From a virus, in the UHGV virus genome UHGV-1567921: a stretch of DNA of 11,891 bases. The stretch is one strand, 5' to 3'. Of the stretch, positions 4,721 to 7,279 are shown piece by piece. Below the pieces are notes generated by a model, which saw only the letters and a program-made list of their open reading frames with translations, searched no databases and was not told the origin of the DNA. Numbering within the stretch: position 1 is the stretch's first letter; each line of letters opens with the position of its first letter. The position numbers and the translations under genes were made by a program.

Positions 4721-5422
4721 TTATTCTGATTCTCGCTCAAAAAATGAGCTGATAAGGGGAAGCCAATCCTCTGACACTTCGCGAGGTCGCGGTTTGCCGT
4801 GGAAAAAGATTATTCGGCAGTCTTTTGGTAATGCCCCATTCCCCCTGGAGTAACGCGCGCTCGCATATTTTGAACCAGGTTCCACAACATCGGCCTTGTA
4901 ACTTACAAACCATCCTGGATACAGATCCTGAAATGCTGGTGTATCATCGCCCATAACCTTTCGTAAGAACCCCTGGTCACCCCAGCACTCAGTAGTGACA
5001 CAACGAGAAATCCAACCTTCCGGATCTTGCCAGAATGAACTCCAGATATGCGCTTTAACACTATTTGGTATCCACAGGGCACCGCTGCCACGATATTGTG
5101 GATGGTAAAAATCCCTAAGCATGGTGAAACTGGTTGGTGGATGCTCTAGGATTGGGCGTATATCACCGGCAATAACCGTGTCCAAATCCAGATAGAACAG
5201 ATCATCGGTTATATCCGGTCGGAACAACTCGATTTTCGCCCACCAGCCACGGCACTTTTGCCACTGGTTGATCAATGGGATAACTTTGACGCCAGGTACA
5301 TGTAAACACTTCAGGTCTGTCAGGCAAATAATTTCATAGTCTTTTGGCAGTTGATTAACCAGCCACTGCACATCGGAAGCGTTATAGTCACCACCAGAGC
5401 GAAGAACTAAAGCAATCTTCAT
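4721..5422 (-). CDS. Putative GT-A fold (GT8-like, DxD) glycosyltransferase, 233 aa, soluble
   Basis: [11 protein letters not shown] resembles the GT-A DxD nucleotide-sugar motif (compare LgtC ...VLYLDIDVLV...). The N-terminal [17 protein letters not shown] resembles the GT8 N-terminal strand-loop. No transmembrane segment seen. The ATG at 5420-5422 forms an ATGA overlap with the phosphatase stop. Confidence 0.7.
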
Positions 5423-6096
5423 GCTGCACCATCACCTTTCACTTTCATCAATGTCAGGTTTCCGCAAAATACGGCACCAGTGTCGATATACTGCTGATTC
5501 CAGAATGTCTTCGGGCTTTTCACCGGAGTGTGACCAAAGATAAAACGATCTGCGCCCGAAATTTCGCCACCAATATCATCCATCGAATCACTGATACGCT
5601 CGCGCGCCCAGACAACGTTGAAAAGCGGCACCTCCTTACCGAATTGGTATTCATTATCCGGATAGTCGGCATGGGCTATAACGATAGTTTCTTGCCCCGT
5701 GTTCAACTCAATGATATAGGGCAGACGCTTTACCAGCTCCACCAGCGCCCAGGCTAATATTTCCTGATCAGTGTCCAGCATGAAGAACCATTGTCCGCCA
5801 TTCATTAGCCAGTTATTCACGTTGCCATCTGGACTTAACGCATCAATCATCAGCCGCTCATGGTTCCCCATCACTGCCCTGAACCAGGGCATCTGCAATA
5901 GTTCCAGACATTCGACATTTTCAGTACCGCGATCGATAAGGTCGCCGACCGATATCAGTAAATCCTGCGCCGGGTCAAAATCCACACGATGGAGTTCGGA
6001 CATCAGTCTGGTGTAGCAACCATGCAGATCACCAACAACCCAGACATTCCTGTATTTGGTACCGTCGATACGGTGATAAATTGTGGGTGCCATCAT
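5419..6096 (-). CDS. Ser/Thr protein phosphatase, lambda PPase-like (PPP / calcineurin-like metallophosphoesterase)
   Basis: PPP signature motifs GDLHG, GDLIDRG and GNHE, with overall colinearity to lambda ORF221 phosphatase as I recall it ([16 protein letters not shown]... [21 protein letters not shown]... [13 protein letters not shown]). The likely start is ATG 6094-6096, forming an ATGA overlap with the upstream stop; the track's longer start at 6111 adds 5 residues. Confidence 0.9.
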
Positions 6097-6719
6097 GTAT
6101 TCTTCAGCCATTCTTTAAGAGTCATCTGCGGAATACCTCCCATTTTCCCGCATGAAACAACGTCAATCTGTTCACGCGCAGACTGGAATAACAAAGGCAG
6201 GTGACTTAGATTTTTTGGCGTGCCGCCGGAGTGAACGCGTAGTTCTTGCGTAGCGTCAACGCCCACCAGAGCTACATGTTTGAATCCGATATGGAAAGCC
6301 AGGTTCAGAGCACCATATGCACTATTGCCGCTGGCAATTTCATTCTCATCTTCGCAAAGGCCGAAATGTGCGGACCAGCGCCACGCCCACCACTCGGGAG
6401 AATTCGTATTTTTTGGCTCCATGCCGCGTTCAGCCACACGACGGAAGCACAGAACGCCATCTCTGACTTCACGTTCTTTAACATCGGGTAGTGCCATGCA
6501 ATAACAAACACCACGGCGACGGCGGCCACGACCAACGCGCCGCATATTGTCTGGGGATGGATCAAGGGTGAAAAAATAAGAAGCGCGGTTAAGCCAGTCG
6601 ATGGCCCCATTGACCGCTATAATCGGCACTCCGCGCGGCGCAACAAAGTTTGCGGCGCTTGGGCCACTGCCGACGATAATAACGCGATCACTGCCTCTAA
6701 ATTTATTCTTGGGAAACAT
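6093..6719 (-). CDS. Putative nucleotide-sugar glycosyltransferase, CstII (GT42) / MptE-like (DUF115) fold, 208 aa; paralog 1
   Basis: N-terminal [14 protein letters not shown]...VPIIAVNGA resembles the CstII sialyltransferase N-terminus (VIIAGNGPSL...). [26 protein letters not shown] resembles the CstII block TSGVYMCAVAIALGYKEIYLSGID. Clearly paralogous to the next gene. Confidence 0.7.
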
Positions 6720-7279
6720 TGAATTGCACTGCTCCTACTTGCATTCAAAATATGTAAATCTGCGTGTTTTTTGCGGGTATCCAGGAACTGCTGTTGCCAT
6801 TTTGAAATAGACACCTGCGTTGGATTCCGTAGTGCTTGAGGGTGCGCGCCATGCCAATGAAGGCCGTTTTGCAGAGAACAGTCATAGCCGACTAATACCA
6901 CTACTTCAGCCCCTGATTCAGCAGCCAGACTGATAGCCTGCGCGCCGCTATTTACCCCTTCCGCCGGTCCACAATATCGCCTGTACTCCAACGAAAATGA
7001 TTTCGCCGCCGCCAGGTTGGCTGTCACTTTGCGGAACCTCCCTCCCGGTATGGTGGAACCGTATTGCTTCCACCATGACAAATCACCGGCGTATAAGGCA
7101 TAAATGTCATCGAACATCTGCCAGGAATTGTTAACCGCGATGATTGAACAGCCAGTTTTTTCTATAGCAGCACAGTCCTCACGAGTGAGTGACGGACCGC
7201 TACCGACACAAAAAACAGTCCTAGTCGCCCTGGGTGGTATGTTCATTCTCAGCTGCAAATTCAGCCTCCAGGCGAGCAT
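6617..7279 (-). CDS. Putative nucleotide-sugar glycosyltransferase, CstII / MptE-like fold, 220 aa as drawn; paralog 2; start and 3' end uncertain
   Basis: TVFCVGSGPSLTRED...CSIIAVNNS and GVNSGAQAISLAAESGAEVVVLVGYD are equivalent to paralog 1. By alignment with paralog 1 the true start may be the internal ATG at 7244-7246 (MNIPPRATRTVFCVGSGPS). The 3' end overlaps paralog 1 by 103 nt out of frame. Confidence 0.65.
   Translation of the reverse strand: MLAWRLNLQLRMNIPPRATRTVFCVGSGPSLTREDCAAIEKTGCSIIAVNNSWQMFDDIYALYAGDLSWWKQYGSTIPGGRFRKVTANLAAAKSFSLEYRRYCGPAEGVNSGAQAISLAAESGAEVVVLVGYDCSLQNGLHWHGAHPQALRNPTQVSISKWQQQFLDTRKKHADLHILNASRSSAIQCFPRINLEAVIALLSSAVAQAPQTLLRRAECRL

What the first reader, a model, noticed from the sequence alone, without database searches (positions are those of the whole stretch)
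4721..7279. Three small soluble putative glycosyltransferases clustered in a phage accessory operon
One ORF carries a GT-A DxD motif (FYLDLDTVI). Two paralogous ORFs have a CstII-like GNGPS-type N-terminus (VIIVGSGPS / VFCVGSGPS) and an (S/T)G...A...G...L.G.D block like GT42 sialyltransferases and MptE/Maf-like nonulosonate transferases. They sit in a row, interrupted only by a lambda-like Ser/Thr phosphatase. None has a membrane anchor or signal peptide, which argues against a GtrABC-type O-antigen conversion module. Inferred roles are glycosylation of phage DNA bases, cytoplasmic-face modification of LPS core (host WaaI/J-type enzymes are GT8), or glycosylation of a host or virion protein. 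I do not know of this gene combination as a described phage system.
Basis: partly seen in the sequence, partly recalled or inferred. Interest (0 to 1): 0.75.

Follow-up and report, generated by a model that had tools for sequence, protein, structure and literature searches.

The report
Phage P1 three-enzyme glycosylation module
The region holds the known but uncharacterised phage P1 genes pmgO, pmgP, ppp and pmgQ; three of them look like sugar-transferring enzymes that travel together in many phages of Gram-negative bacteria, usually among the head genes, so they probably put a short sugar chain on a virion protein.

Summary
The window is a P1-like phage (98-99% identical to P1). The ORFs are pmgO (6617-7279), pmgP (6093-6719), ppp (5419-6111) and pmgQ (4721-5422), all on the minus strand. 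They are non-essential and have no known function.

- PmgQ is a minimal, divergent GT8-like GT-A enzyme. Its profile hits GT8 structures at E 2e-8, and the DxD, GDQ and HG.PRP motifs align.
- Ppp is an unrelated lambda-type phosphatase, found inside the module only in P1-like phages.

New here: the enzymes form a conserved module.
- A GT8-like gene has an MptE-fold partner within 3 kb in 47 of 58 diverse loci.
- Natural fusions occur in both orders.
- FkbM and other methyltransferases often accompany them.
- The usual position is between the major capsid and head-tail connector genes.
- All named bacterial hosts are Gram-negative.

My best reading is a late-expressed glycan-building module, probably using host CMP-Kdo and a UDP-hexose, that decorates a virion protein. 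LPS remodelling is the main rival; DNA glycosylation is unlikely. The acceptor is inferred, not shown.

The parts
6617..7279 (-). pmgO (P7 hdmB): 220-aa CstII/Maf/MptE-fold protein, predicted CMP-ulosonic-acid-type glycosyltransferase. The true start may be the ATG at 7246.
   Evidence: AF2 model pLDDT 86.7. Best Foldseek hit is Maf GT 5mu5. Invariant G28 P29 S30, D66, S111 G112, G131 D133, H141 H143.
6093..6719 (-). pmgP (P7 hdmC): 208-aa remote paralog of PmgO with the same fold. It overlaps pmgO by 103 nt and has an AGGAG 12 nt before the ATG.
5419..6111 (-). ppp: lambda-type Ser/Thr protein phosphatase (metallophosphoesterase). It lies inside the module only in P1-like phages and is probably an independent insert.
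   Evidence: PF00149 E 9e-16; NinI-like phrog_246; NCBIfam PrpA/PrpB-like. Absent between the GT genes in non-P1 loci.
4721..5422 (-). pmgQ (P7 hdmD): 233-aa minimal GT8-like GT-A enzyme, predicted retaining hexosyltransferase.
   Evidence: Profile vs PDB: 6mw5 E 2.3e-8, 5gvv 1.7e-5, glycogenin ~4e-5. hhalign to WaaJ 72%, E 3.5e-5. phrog_1962 'glycosyltransferase'. Invariant D79 L80 D81, D149.
5171..5197 (-). Codons for FYLDLDTVI, the DxD motif of PmgQ.
   Evidence: Aligns with the GT8 DxD (YIDADAIV, YLDSDLIV).
7190..7216 (-). Codons for VFCVGSGPS, the nucleotide-binding loop of PmgO.
   Evidence: Aligns with CstII VIIAGNGPS.
6657..6683 (-). Codons for VIIVGSGPS, the nucleotide-binding loop of PmgP.
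7221..7376 (-). pmgN (P7 hdmA): 51-aa ORF and first gene of the operon. It overlaps the 5' end of pmgO. Function unknown.
   Evidence: Not related to the small ORF that precedes PmgO-like genes in HK97-like phages.
7420..7475 (.). Upstream control region: C1 operator Oppp (Op83) and predicted sigma-70 promoter PpmgN. Coordinates are transferred from the P1 record (locus coordinate minus 1312).
   Evidence: The operator is too divergent to be found with 3 or fewer mismatches to the consensus.
4654..4719 (.). Two C1 operators (Op86b, Op86a) and the PpmgR promoter. They mark the start of the next operon (pmgR-pmgS) and so the 3' boundary of the module.
   Evidence: matches at 4654-4670 and 4703-4719; 0 of 200 shuffles give 4 matches.

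Best explanation
The region is the pmgN-pmgO-pmgP-ppp-pmgQ operon of a P1-like phage. PmgO and PmgP are two diverged copies of a small enzyme with the fold of the bacterial sialyltransferases CstI/CstII, the flagellin glycosyltransferase Maf and (weakly) the LPS KdoIII transferase WaaZ. I propose that they transfer a CMP-activated 2-keto-3-deoxy sugar acid. In E. coli K-12 the only such donor is CMP-Kdo. PmgQ is a stripped-down GT8-type retaining transferase that would add a hexose from a UDP-sugar. The three act on one acceptor and build a short glycan; in relatives the glycan would also be methylated. Because the module is transcribed in lytic growth and in most other phages sits among the head and neck genes, the acceptor is most likely a virion structural protein made at the same time. 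The model is cytoplasmic O-glycosylation before or during assembly, as in mycobacteriophage and chlorovirus capsids. Ppp is an unrelated phosphatase inserted into the module in the P1 lineage.

Shown here: the folds, the paralogy, the conserved linkage and fusions, the genomic position and the host range.

Inferred: glycosyltransferase rather than pyrophosphokinase chemistry, the donors, and the acceptor.
For: Identity: 98-99% to P1; gene names.

PmgQ is GT8-like:
- profile hits to GT8 structures at E 2e-8 to 1e-5, with DxD, NSG-like, GDQ and HG.PRP(W) aligned;
- WaaJ at 72%;
- 14 of 52 family members give weak PF01501 hits.

PmgO and PmgP:
- hhalign 97.9% to each other;
- Foldseek top hit for PmgO is Maf;
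- the joint profile's best PDB sequence hit is CstII, E 0.004 over residues 1-171;
- WaaZ scores 15.0 and 12.2 bits against the two HMMs (P 6e-7 and 5e-6), against -1.2 bits for the PmgQ control, and WaaZ aligns end to end;
- the precomputed Pfam record for the fusion P0051 lists MptE-like and WaaZ_KDO_III, both faint.

Functional linkage:
- a PmgO-PmgP fusion followed directly by a PmgQ homolog;
- PmgQ fused to an MptE-fold domain in both orders;
- an MptE-fold partner within 3 kb of PmgQ in 47 of 58 loci with full flanks;
- the full trio in Enterobacterales, Zhongshania, Brevundimonas and Sinomicrobium.

Glycan context: FkbM methyltransferase directly upstream in 34 loci, Methyltransf_24 in 11, and extra GT-like genes.

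Morphogenetic context:
- head-tail connector genes directly downstream (25 loci) and major capsid genes 2.4-3.9 kb upstream (43 loci);
- the same in Martelella, Onishia, Mu-like and T7-like contigs and in phage D3;
- the P1 operon lies downstream of a late promoter, LPpmgL.

Host range: every named bacterial host in 31 + 73 phage records is Gram-negative, which fits a Kdo donor.

Precedent: Maf enzymes expressed in E. coli put Kdo on Ser/Thr (10.1101/2020.06.03.131540, PMC11339370). The three residues needed in Maf (acidic, Ser, Asp/Asn; Ser-to-Asp spacing 23) match by spacing the invariant D/S/D of PmgO and PmgP (spacing 22).

The genes are non-essential in the laboratory, as expected for a decoration function.
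Against: - No glycosylated P1 virion protein has been reported. The P1 virion proteome and baseplate cryo-EM papers do not mention glycans.
- Fold does not discriminate. The archaeal pyrophosphokinase MptE scores almost as high as Maf and has the highest identity (21%). Thiamine pyrophosphokinases also match.
- Pfam PF01973 hits are below the gathering score (20.9 and 23.4 against 34.6), and PmgQ does not reach PF01501.
- The nearest functional relatives of all three (WaaZ, WaaJ/WaaO) work on LPS core, not on protein.
- Some homologs sit at classic lysogenic-conversion sites (next to int and tail-fibre genes in phage Chlobot) or after the lysis genes. Position among late genes may only mean moron insertion.
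- In P1 the operon also has C1-controlled early promoters.
- I had no structure model for PmgQ and no residue-level superposition for PmgO or PmgP.
Confidence: 0.45

Rival explanations
1. LPS or another lipid-linked glycan is the acceptor. The three soluble enzymes work at the cytoplasmic face of the inner membrane like WaaZ and WaaJ/WaaO. They add Kdo and hexose to lipid A-core, changing the receptor used by P1 and other phages. This would give superinfection exclusion, or protect progeny from adsorbing to debris.
For: - WaaZ (KdoIII transferase) is a remote homolog of PmgO and PmgP (faint WaaZ_KDO_III Pfam record).
- PmgQ aligns with WaaJ and WaaO.
- All bacterial hosts are Gram-negative.
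- PmgO and PmgP are basic (pI 9.3-9.5), and PmgP has a Trp-rich PEWWxWRW helix and an Arg-rich loop that could bind a membrane surface.
- A lone PmgQ homolog in phage Chlobot lies between int and the tail-fibre genes, a typical conversion locus.
- From my own knowledge: P1 adsorbs to LPS core glucose.
Against: - In P1 the operon is behind C1 operators, so it should be off in lysogens.
- LPS made late in infection cannot replace the LPS already in the outer membrane.
- The dominant position in other phages is inside the head-neck gene block, not at conversion loci.
Confidence: 0.25
2. The acceptor is a host protein, not a virion protein. The module would glycosylate a cytoplasmic host factor (takeover or anti-defence), as bacterial toxin glycosyltransferases of the GT-A type do.
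For: - The enzymes are soluble and cytoplasmic.
- PmgQ's best structural-family matches are protein-directed GT8s: the Skp1 alpha-galactosyltransferase, a streptococcal GT8 and glycogenin.
- Maf is protein-directed.
- In P1 the module is also under early C1-controlled promoters and carries a protein phosphatase in its midst.
Against: - The module is conserved across hosts from Bacteroidota to Alpha-, Beta- and Gammaproteobacteria, which would need a very conserved host target.
- The head-gene position is not explained.
- No match to known defence or anti-defence families.
Confidence: 0.1
3. PmgO and PmgP are not glycosyltransferases but ATP-dependent pyrophosphokinases (like archaeal MptE or thiamine pyrophosphokinase) acting on a small molecule or on a sugar. 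PmgQ would work on a separate substrate.
For: - The only Pfam family touched is 'MptE-like'.
- Two phosphatases (ppp, pap) lie in the same P1 region.
Against: - By sequence profile, CstII sialyltransferases score better than MptE (E 0.004 against 0.08).
- PmgO H141 and S135 fall where CstII has the phosphate-contacting Tyr162 and Tyr156 in that alignment (the role of these CstII residues is from my own knowledge).
- Repeated gene fusion to a GT8-like enzyme, and co-occurrence with sugar-type methyltransferases and further GTs, fit glycan assembly.
- The phosphatases are P1-specific neighbours.
Confidence: 0.1
4. The enzymes glycosylate bases of the phage DNA to evade restriction.
For: - Phage GT clusters that put hexose, heptose and even Kdo on 5hmC exist, and some of those GTs resemble WaaJ/WaaO-type GT8 enzymes (10.1101/2023.12.21.572611).
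- PmgO and PmgP are basic proteins.
Against: - Those systems sit next to C5-methyltransferase/5mYOX or thymidylate-synthase-like genes. None appears among the recurrent neighbours of about 95 loci, which are head, neck and tail genes and O-methyltransferase-type enzymes.
- From my own knowledge: P1 has no hydroxymethylase, and its DNA is cut normally by common restriction enzymes.
Confidence: 0.05

Closest known systems
Maf (motility-associated factor) flagellin nonulosonic-acid glycosyltransferases (PDB 5mu5; Pfam PF01973 region)
   Different: Maf proteins are 3 times larger, with extra N- and C-terminal domains. Sequence similarity is below Pfam's threshold. PmgO and PmgP are about 200-aa single domains encoded by phages and paired with a GT8-like enzyme. 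No activity has been shown.
Campylobacter CstII/CstI sialyltransferases (CAZy GT42)
   Different: No lid domain and no counterpart of the catalytic His188 at the same place. Asp replaces Asn51. PmgO has an HWHG.H cluster where CstII has Tyr156/Tyr162. K-12 makes no CMP-sialic acid.
WaaZ, LPS inner-core KdoIII transferase of E. coli K-12 (CAZy GT73)
   Same: Collinear match of all motifs, including the C-terminal I.N.S..T...(F/I)P...L(E/Q)D segment. The donor would be CMP-Kdo, which every host of these phages makes.
   Different: The similarity is only 12-15 bits (significant as a one-to-one test only). WaaZ is 283 aa with a long insertion and acts on lipid A-core. I know of no WaaZ structure or in vitro assay to compare with.
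GT8 retaining glycosyltransferases (glycogenin, Skp1 alpha-galactosyltransferase, streptococcal GT8, LPS WaaJ/WaaO)
   Same: PmgQ shares the GT-A DxD, the DQ motif and the C-terminal H-x-G-x-x-(K/R)-P motif, and gives significant profile matches.
   Different: At 200-230 aa, PmgQ is shorter than any characterised GT8. It is below the Pfam PF01501 threshold and forms its own phage family (phrog_1962). Donor and acceptor are unknown.
Virion glycosylation systems of mycobacteriophages (Che8 and relatives) and chloroviruses (PBCV-1 A064R, which includes a sugar methyltransferase domain)
   Same: Virus-encoded soluble glycosyltransferases, with a methyltransferase in the chlorovirus case, decorate capsid or tail proteins in the cytoplasm. 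They are dispensable for growth in the laboratory.
   Different: Different GT families and different hosts. For the P1-type module no glycosylated virion protein has been demonstrated. What I know of these systems beyond the abstracts found is from memory.
Archaeal 6-hydroxymethyl-7,8-dihydropterin pyrophosphokinase MptE (PDB 8sd5)
   Different: It is an ATP pyrophosphokinase of folate/methanopterin synthesis. Nothing in the phage gene neighbourhood relates to pterins.

Membership tests
CAZy GT8 / Pfam PF01501 (PmgQ) | GT-A fold with a DxD metal/nucleotide-sugar motif | tested here: met
   D79-L80-D81 is invariant in 52 homologs and aligns with the GT8 DxD in 6mw5, 5gvv and glycogenin.
CAZy GT8 / Pfam PF01501 (PmgQ) | Sequence match at the family's curated threshold | tested here: not met
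   No PF01501 hit for the window protein at E<=0.1. Only 14 of 52 family members give weak hits (best E 0.02). The profile does match GT8 structures at E 2e-8.
CAZy GT8 / Pfam PF01501 (PmgQ) | C-terminal H-x-G-x-x-K-P-W motif and DQ(D/G) motif | tested here: met
   FHGKPRP (H208, G209, P211, P213 nearly invariant) and GDQGF (D149 invariant) align with HF.G..KPW and GDQ in glycogenin, 6mw5, WaaJ and WaaO.
CAZy GT8 / Pfam PF01501 (PmgQ) | Retaining transfer of a hexose from a UDP-sugar | not testable with these tools
   Needs an enzyme assay.
CAZy GT42 (CstI/CstII) (PmgO, PmgP) | Sialyltransferase-type alpha/beta fold with an N-terminal G-x-G-P-S nucleotide loop | tested here: met
CAZy GT42 (CstI/CstII) (PmgO, PmgP) | Catalytic His188 and phosphate-binding Tyr156/Tyr162 (roles recalled from the CstII literature) | tested here: not met
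   In the HMM alignment PmgO has S135 and H141 at the Tyr positions. No conserved His is shared by PmgO, PmgP and WaaZ at one column. No 3D superposition was possible.
CAZy GT42 (CstI/CstII) (PmgO, PmgP) | CMP-Neu5Ac as donor | not testable with these tools
   From my own knowledge, E. coli K-12 lacks CMP-Neu5Ac. CMP-Kdo is proposed instead, by inference.
Pfam PF01973 MptE-like / Maf | Match at Pfam's gathering score | tested here: not met
   PmgP 20.9 bits and PmgO 23.4 bits against a cut-off of 34.6. Only the C-terminal 30-40 profile positions match. Some homologs carry a precomputed PF01973 hit.
Pfam PF01973 MptE-like / Maf | Same fold as Maf central domain or MptE | tested here: met
Pfam PF01973 MptE-like / Maf | Acidic/Ser/Asp residues required for Maf activity (E324, D415 in 5mu5; D272, S334, D357 in CbMaf) | tested here: inconclusive
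   The invariant D53/S133/D155 of PmgP and D66/S111/D133 of PmgO have the same order and the same Ser-Asp spacing (22 against 23). I could not align them residue by residue to Maf.
CAZy GT73 (WaaZ) | Detectable homology to E. coli WaaZ | tested here: inconclusive
   15.0 and 12.2 bits (P 6e-7 and 5e-6 in a one-sequence test; control -1.2 bits). hhalign probability is only 14-19%. Collinear in MAFFT. Faint PF27901 record on P0051.
GtrABC-type O-antigen conversion module | Integral membrane GtrA flippase, GtrB bactoprenol glucosyltransferase and a serotype-specific membrane Gtr | tested here: not met
   No hydrophobic 19-residue window of 1.6 or more in any of the proteins. No matching families.
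Phage DNA sugar-hypermodification gene clusters | GT next to C5-methyltransferase + 5mYOX/TET, or a thymidylate-synthase-like hydroxymethylase | tested here: not met
   The recurrent neighbours in about 95 loci are capsid, portal, terminase, connector and tail genes and FkbM/class I methyltransferases. None of the defining genes is in the window.
Virion glycosylation systems | A virion protein carrying a glycan that depends on the phage GT genes | not testable with these tools
   Only positional evidence. There is no report for P1.
Lambda-type Ser/Thr protein phosphatase (Ppp) | Calcineurin-like metallophosphoesterase domain, close to lambda PPase and PrpA/PrpB | tested here: met
   PF00149 59.3 bits (cut-off 21.5). 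NF008516 E 3e-81, though below the equivalog cut-off. phrog_246. The P1 record notes 64% identity to the lambda phosphatase.

The most novel reading that the evidence does not exclude
Tailed phages of Gram-negative bacteria, including the classical phage P1, carry a widespread and so far unrecognised virion-glycosylation system. It uses the host's LPS precursor CMP-Kdo (through a new family of mini Maf/CstII/WaaZ-like transferases) plus a mini GT8 enzyme, and often methyltransferases, to coat head proteins with an LPS-core-like glycan. In HK97-like members the transferase is made only by a -1 programmed frameshift from a small ORF that follows the capsid gene, which would tether a fixed fraction of enzyme to the assembling head.
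Probability: 0.25. Interest if true: 0.85.

Novelty: new variant of a known kind. Interest (0 to 1): 0.6.

Why it matters
P1 is one of the most used phages in genetics, yet this operon has had only a placeholder name ('putative morphogenetic function') for twenty years.

If the module glycosylates virions, it would extend phage virion glycosylation from mycobacteriophages to phages of Gram-negative bacteria. As far as I know, that has so far been shown only for mycobacteriophages. It would also show that phages draw on the CMP-Kdo pool, and it would define three compact enzyme families (about 200 aa) useful for glyco-engineering. It bears on phage therapy, because surface glycans change antibody recognition and stability.

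If the target turns out to be LPS instead, it would be a new cytoplasmic route of receptor modification.

Either way the question is directly testable. The genes are non-essential, P1 genetics is easy, and the expected mass shifts are simple (+220 Da for Kdo, +162 Da for hexose).

Tried and rejected
1. I first took the conserved Ser-rich tail (SASPAAQASP...) of the small ORF that precedes PmgO-like genes in HK97-like phages as a candidate acceptor peptide. I rejected this. It is the 0-frame reading of the codons for VCIASGPSLT of the transferase, which lies in the -1 frame.

2. Apparent in-frame fusions of that small ORF with the transferase (L195, L198, L205, L218, L231) are out-of-frame junk with chance start codons. 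Only L150 looks genuine.

3. RNAalifold did not find the proposed frameshift hairpin. The single-sequence folding energy is no better than shuffles (z -0.06). Support comes only from pair counting on a structure I specified myself.

4. The first hhalign of PmgO against PmgP was an artefact of the fused protein P0051 in the alignment. I repeated it without P0051.

5. The afdb50 fold library was unavailable, so WaaZ could not be compared structurally.

6. Single-sequence searches of PDB sequences gave nothing useful for PmgO or PmgP.

7. The first IMG/VR scan returned only near-identical P1 copies.

8. There were no PADLOC defence matches for the module and no NCBIfam names.

9. Literature searches found no functional study of pmgO/pmgP/pmgQ/hdmB-D and no open paper on the MptE structure.

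10. The terminator and promoter scan of the operon was uninformative.

11. C-terminal extensions of long PmgO-like ORFs gave no Pfam assignment.

12. D3 orf12 / PAJU2 ORF011 looked to me like a GT9 heptosyltransferase N-terminus, but Pfam gives no hit, so I make no claim.

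
Full report
**What the window is.**

The 11.9-kb window is 98-99% identical to phage P1 from about position 1689 to 11817. Similar matches come from P7, SJ46, RCS47 and many P1-like phage-plasmids. Transferring the P1 and P7 annotation, the finding covers four genes, all on the minus strand:
- pmgO (6617-7279; P7 hdmB)
- pmgP (6093-6719; hdmC)
- ppp (5419-6111)
- pmgQ (4721-5422; hdmD)

The small ORF pmgN (7221-7376; hdmA) lies in front of them, and the VRR-NUC gene pmgM (7443-8021) lies before that.

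The genes overlap: pmgN/pmgO by about 59 nt, pmgO/pmgP by 103 nt, pmgP/ppp by 19 nt and ppp/pmgQ by 4 nt. They are therefore one translationally coupled operon.

According to the P1 record, the operon is preceded by a C1 operator (Op83/Oppp) and a predicted sigma-70 promoter. Further upstream, before pmgL, lie C1-controlled promoters and a late promoter, LPpmgL. The two Op86 operators at 4654-4670 and 4703-4719 start the next operon, pmgR-pmgS. The module should thus be silent in lysogens and transcribed both early and late in lytic growth.

A genome-wide CRISPRi study, and the knock-out study it cites, list pmgO, pmgP, ppp and pmgQ as non-essential (PMC10695390). I found no paper that addresses their function.

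**Check of the observation.**

- FYLDLDTVI is at PmgQ residues 76-84, and D79-L80-D81 are invariant in 52 homologs.
- VFCVGSGPS (PmgO) and VIIVGSGPS (PmgP) head each protein. The NSG/GNS...A...G...L.G.D blocks are invariant within each family.
- The gene in between is a calcineurin-like phosphoesterase close to the lambda phosphatase.
- None of the proteins has a hydrophobic stretch long enough for a membrane span.

**PmgQ.**

The single sequence gives only a marginal hit to a GT8 structure (E 0.09). A profile of 52 homologs hits GT8 structures clearly:
- the Skp1 alpha-galactosyltransferase 6mw5, E 2.3e-8;
- a streptococcal GT8 (5gvv), E 1.7e-5;
- about 20 glycogenin entries, E about 4e-5.

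In these hits the DxD, the (N)SG, the GDQ and the C-terminal H-G-x-P-R-P(W) motifs are all aligned. The profile also aligns with the LPS enzymes WaaJ (72%, E 3.5e-5) and WaaO (36%) of E. coli K-12.

PmgQ does not reach Pfam's PF01501 threshold; only 14 of 52 relatives give weak hits. PmgQ is therefore a divergent, very short (about 200-230 aa) GT8-like enzyme. PHROGs already calls it 'glycosyltransferase'. I did not model its structure.

**PmgO and PmgP.**

BLASTP sees only the N-terminal loop. Profile-profile comparison shows full-length homology (97.9%, E 4e-13; one search was an artefact of a fused sequence).

AlphaFold models are confident: pLDDT 86.7 for PmgO and 94.1 for PmgP.

After these there is a gap down to generic Rossmann-like proteins. 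Foldseek agrees, with Maf top for PmgO, and MptE followed by CstII for PmgP.

A joint sequence profile of PmgO, PmgP and WaaZ finds CstII as the best PDB sequence (E 0.004, residues 1-171), ahead of CstI (0.06), MptE (0.08), a Neisseria LOS sialyltransferase (0.26) and Maf (0.5).

The record for a fused homolog carried a faint 'WaaZ_KDO_III' Pfam hit, so I fetched E. coli WaaZ.
- It aligns collinearly with both families, including the C-terminal I.N.S..T...P...L.D segment.
- It scores 15.0 and 12.2 bits against the PmgP and PmgO HMMs (P 6e-7 and 5e-6 for a single comparison), against -1.2 bits for the PmgQ control.
- hhalign with the single WaaZ sequence stays weak (14-19%).

But the fold is shared by CMP-sugar transferases and ATP pyrophosphokinases, and structure alone does not decide between them.

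**The three genes are a module.**

This is the main new result.

1. A 376-aa protein from a metagenomic phage contig (P0051, locus L003) is an in-frame PmgO-PmgP fusion. It is followed immediately by a PmgQ homolog and a fourth GT-A-like ORF.

2. One-genome-per-species scanning found the trio together in Enterobacterales, Zhongshania, Brevundimonas and the Bacteroidota genus Sinomicrobium, without ppp in between.

3. I fetched 80 diverse IMG/VR loci with a PmgQ profile; at least 577 relatives exist there.
   - PmgQ has a PmgO-type gene directly upstream in many of them.
   - In others it has a third MptE-fold subfamily, 'c5' (hhalign 96.5% to PmgP and 95.8% to PmgO).
   - Several PmgQ proteins are fused to an MptE-fold domain, in either order.
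   - Counting only loci with at least 2.5 kb on both sides, 47 of 58 have an MptE-fold partner within 3 kb. At least three of the remaining eleven are fusions that my HMMs missed.

4. Unbiased clustering of all neighbouring ORFs gave these most frequent companions:
   - an FkbM-family methyltransferase directly upstream of PmgQ (34 loci);
   - a Methyltransf_24 enzyme directly downstream (11 loci);
   - gp6-like head-tail connector (25 loci, directly downstream);
   - head completion protein (23 loci);
   - HK97 gp10-like protein (22 loci);
   - HK97-type major capsid protein (22 + 21 loci, 2.4-3.9 kb upstream);
   - portal (27 loci) and large terminase (19 loci).

Precomputed Pfam annotation of seven independent contigs shows the same pattern. 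The module lies between capsid and head-completion genes in Martelella, Onishia and other siphovirus-like prophages. It lies inside the Mu-like head block, and after the capsid gene of a T7-like contig. Phage D3 has its PmgO homolog (orf7) right after the major head gene, with a methyltransferase a few genes on.

Other positions occur: after the lysis cassette (L003, Buttiauxella, Citrobacter phage phiNP), and, for a lone distant PmgQ homolog, between int and the tail-fibre genes.

Ppp is inside the module only in P1-like genomes.

**Host range.**

tblastn against 50,697 GenBank phage records finds PmgQ in 31 and PmgO in 73. The hosts are:
- P1-like phages and other Escherichia, Citrobacter and Salmonella phages;
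- D3-like Pseudomonas phages;
- jumbo phages of Xanthomonas, Stenotrophomonas, Klebsiella/Serratia, Caulobacter and Brevundimonas;
- a Pelagibacter phage.

Every named bacterial host is Gram-negative. Three records are named Tetraselmis viridis virus. The named sources of the database homologs are also all Proteobacteria.

**How it most likely works.**

Repeated fusion, tight linkage, and the company of sugar-type O-methyltransferases and extra GT-like genes argue that the MptE-fold proteins are glycosyltransferases working with PmgQ on one growing glycan. They argue against pyrophosphokinases.

The superfamily's transferases use CMP-activated 2-keto-3-deoxy sugar acids. No nonulosonate synthesis genes accompany the module. 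The only universal donor of that class in the hosts, and the only one in K-12, is CMP-Kdo.

Two Maf enzymes have been shown to put Kdo on Ser/Thr of flagellin when expressed in E. coli (10.1101/2020.06.03.131540; PMC11339370). The residues needed for Maf activity (an acidic residue, a Ser and an Asp/Asn, with Ser-to-Asp spacing of 23) have equally spaced invariant counterparts in PmgO and PmgP (D66/S111/D133 and D53/S133/D155). This last mapping is by spacing, not by superposition.

For the acceptor I favour a virion protein, for four reasons:
- the dominant position inside the head-neck block;
- late co-transcription;
- dispensability in the laboratory;
- all three enzyme families have protein-directed members (Maf; glycogenin, Skp1 GlyT and streptococcal GT8).

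Two GenBank records (PAJU2 ORF010 and Klebsiella phage Eowyn) label their PmgO homolog 'structural protein'. I could not check the basis of that label. The P7 record calls the genes 'head morphogenesis', possibly only because of the D3 similarity it cites.

I put about 0.8 on 'three glycosyltransferases forming one module' and about 0.4 on 'virion protein acceptor'.

**Rivals.**

- **LPS core remodelling** is the serious alternative. The nearest functional relatives (WaaZ, WaaJ/WaaO) are core enzymes, the hosts are all Gram-negative, and PmgO and PmgP are basic, with a Trp-rich helix and an Arg-rich loop in PmgP. Against it: the P1 operon is repressed in lysogens, and LPS made late cannot replace what is already in the outer membrane.
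- **A host-protein target** and **pyrophosphokinase chemistry** cannot be excluded.
- **DNA glycosylation** has precedents, including Kdo on 5hmC (10.1101/2023.12.21.572611). But those clusters sit beside C5-methyltransferase/5mYOX or thymidylate-synthase-like genes, which are absent here.

**Side finding in related phages (not in the window).**

In HK97-like relatives the PmgO-type gene has no ATG/GTG/TTG before its GSGPS motif in 25 of 27 loci examined. It lies in the -1 frame of a roughly 85-aa ORF (phrog_2616 type, D3 orf6.5) that follows the capsid gene.
- All 38 IMG/VR loci retrieved with that small ORF carry a PmgO-type gene, and in 34 it starts within 900 nt downstream.
- In all but one of the 22 aligned sequences (the exception is the divergent L103), a Pro codon preceded by C ('C CCN'; C CCA AAG in D3-like phages) sits 6 nt upstream of a 10-bp stem. 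The stem's 3' arm is the ASGP codons (GGCCGCTGGC / GCCAGCGGCC).
- 88.6% of cells pair, against 24-55% in slid controls.
- There are compensatory changes at two pairs; the covariation score is reached by 2 of 500 shuffles.
- RNAalifold and the folding energy do not support the stem on their own, and I specified the structure myself.
- One contig (L150) has the predicted fusion in frame, with the junction ...RPRDGRW-VVCIASGPS.

This looks like a -1 programmed frameshift that makes an N-domain-transferase fusion, in the way tail chaperones G/GT are made. It would fit an enzyme tied to assembly.

P1 does not use it. pmgO has its own ATGs, and PmgN is unrelated to the small ORF.

**Verdict.**

Their organisation as a widespread, fused and head-associated glycosylation module of Gram-negative phages, and the Kdo link, are to my knowledge undescribed and easy to test in P1.

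Noticed in passing
Related loci L192 (phage D3, 5691-6409), L194-L234, L103, L104; not in the window: Probable -1 programmed ribosomal frameshift. The PmgO-type transferase has no start codon before its GSGPS motif (25 of 27 loci). It overlaps, in the -1 frame, a roughly 85-aa ORF that follows the capsid gene. A conserved 'C CCN' lies 6 nt before a 10-bp stem built from the ASGP codons.
   Followed up: partly
window 1-2383: The left end is not P1-like. It holds an Ead/Ea22-like gene (72-776), a PAPS-reductase/SspD/DndC-like gene (773-1651, about 90% identical to genes of Stx-converting and Shigella phages) and a 242-aa phrog_874 ORF (1655-2383) in place of P1 pmgT/U/V. This is a mosaic junction near position 1689.
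   Followed up: no
L089-L093 (Pseudescherichia and Enterobacteriaceae MAGs), e.g. L089 3269-15338: Here the PmgO, PmgP and PmgQ homologs are not in a recognisable prophage. They are interleaved with a 1166-aa inverse autotransporter (intimin/invasin type, Big_1 repeats) and two more Big_1 proteins. This is a possible case of adhesin glycosylation.
   Followed up: partly
window 7221-7409 (pmgN): CRISPRi knock-down of pmgN lowers P1 plating about 70-fold ('essential'), although the knock-out study cited there calls it non-essential and the downstream genes are dispensable. This is unexplained.
   Followed up: no
L193 3974-4543 (PAJU2 ORF010); Klebsiella phage vB_KvM-Eowyn 2336-2872: PmgO homologs are annotated 'structural protein' in two GenBank records. 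If this rests on virion proteomics, the enzyme itself would be virion-associated. I could not read the source papers.
   Followed up: no
L192 7748-8575 (D3 orf12) and L193 4525-5352 (PAJU2 ORF011): A conserved 275-aa protein lies between the PmgO homolog and a methyltransferase in the D3-type neck region. Its N-terminus (LFIRGMLGLGDNIY...) reminded me of GT9 heptosyltransferases, but Pfam gives no hit.
   Followed up: partly
window 6617-6719: pmgO and pmgP overlap by 103 nt in different frames. The last 34 residues of PmgO are absent from most homologs, so the tail is probably just read-through into pmgP. Elsewhere the two genes are fused in frame (P0051).
   Followed up: partly
window 7420-7436: The annotated C1 operator Oppp (Op83) differs from the operator consensus by more than 3 bases, unlike the four other operators in the window at 2562, 4654, 4703 and 8327.
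   Followed up: no
L200, L201, L204, L211, L214, L221: Some PmgO-type ORFs are 420-580 aa, with C-terminal extensions of unknown nature. There is one weak hit to DUF6716, 'putative glycosyltransferase'.
   Followed up: partly
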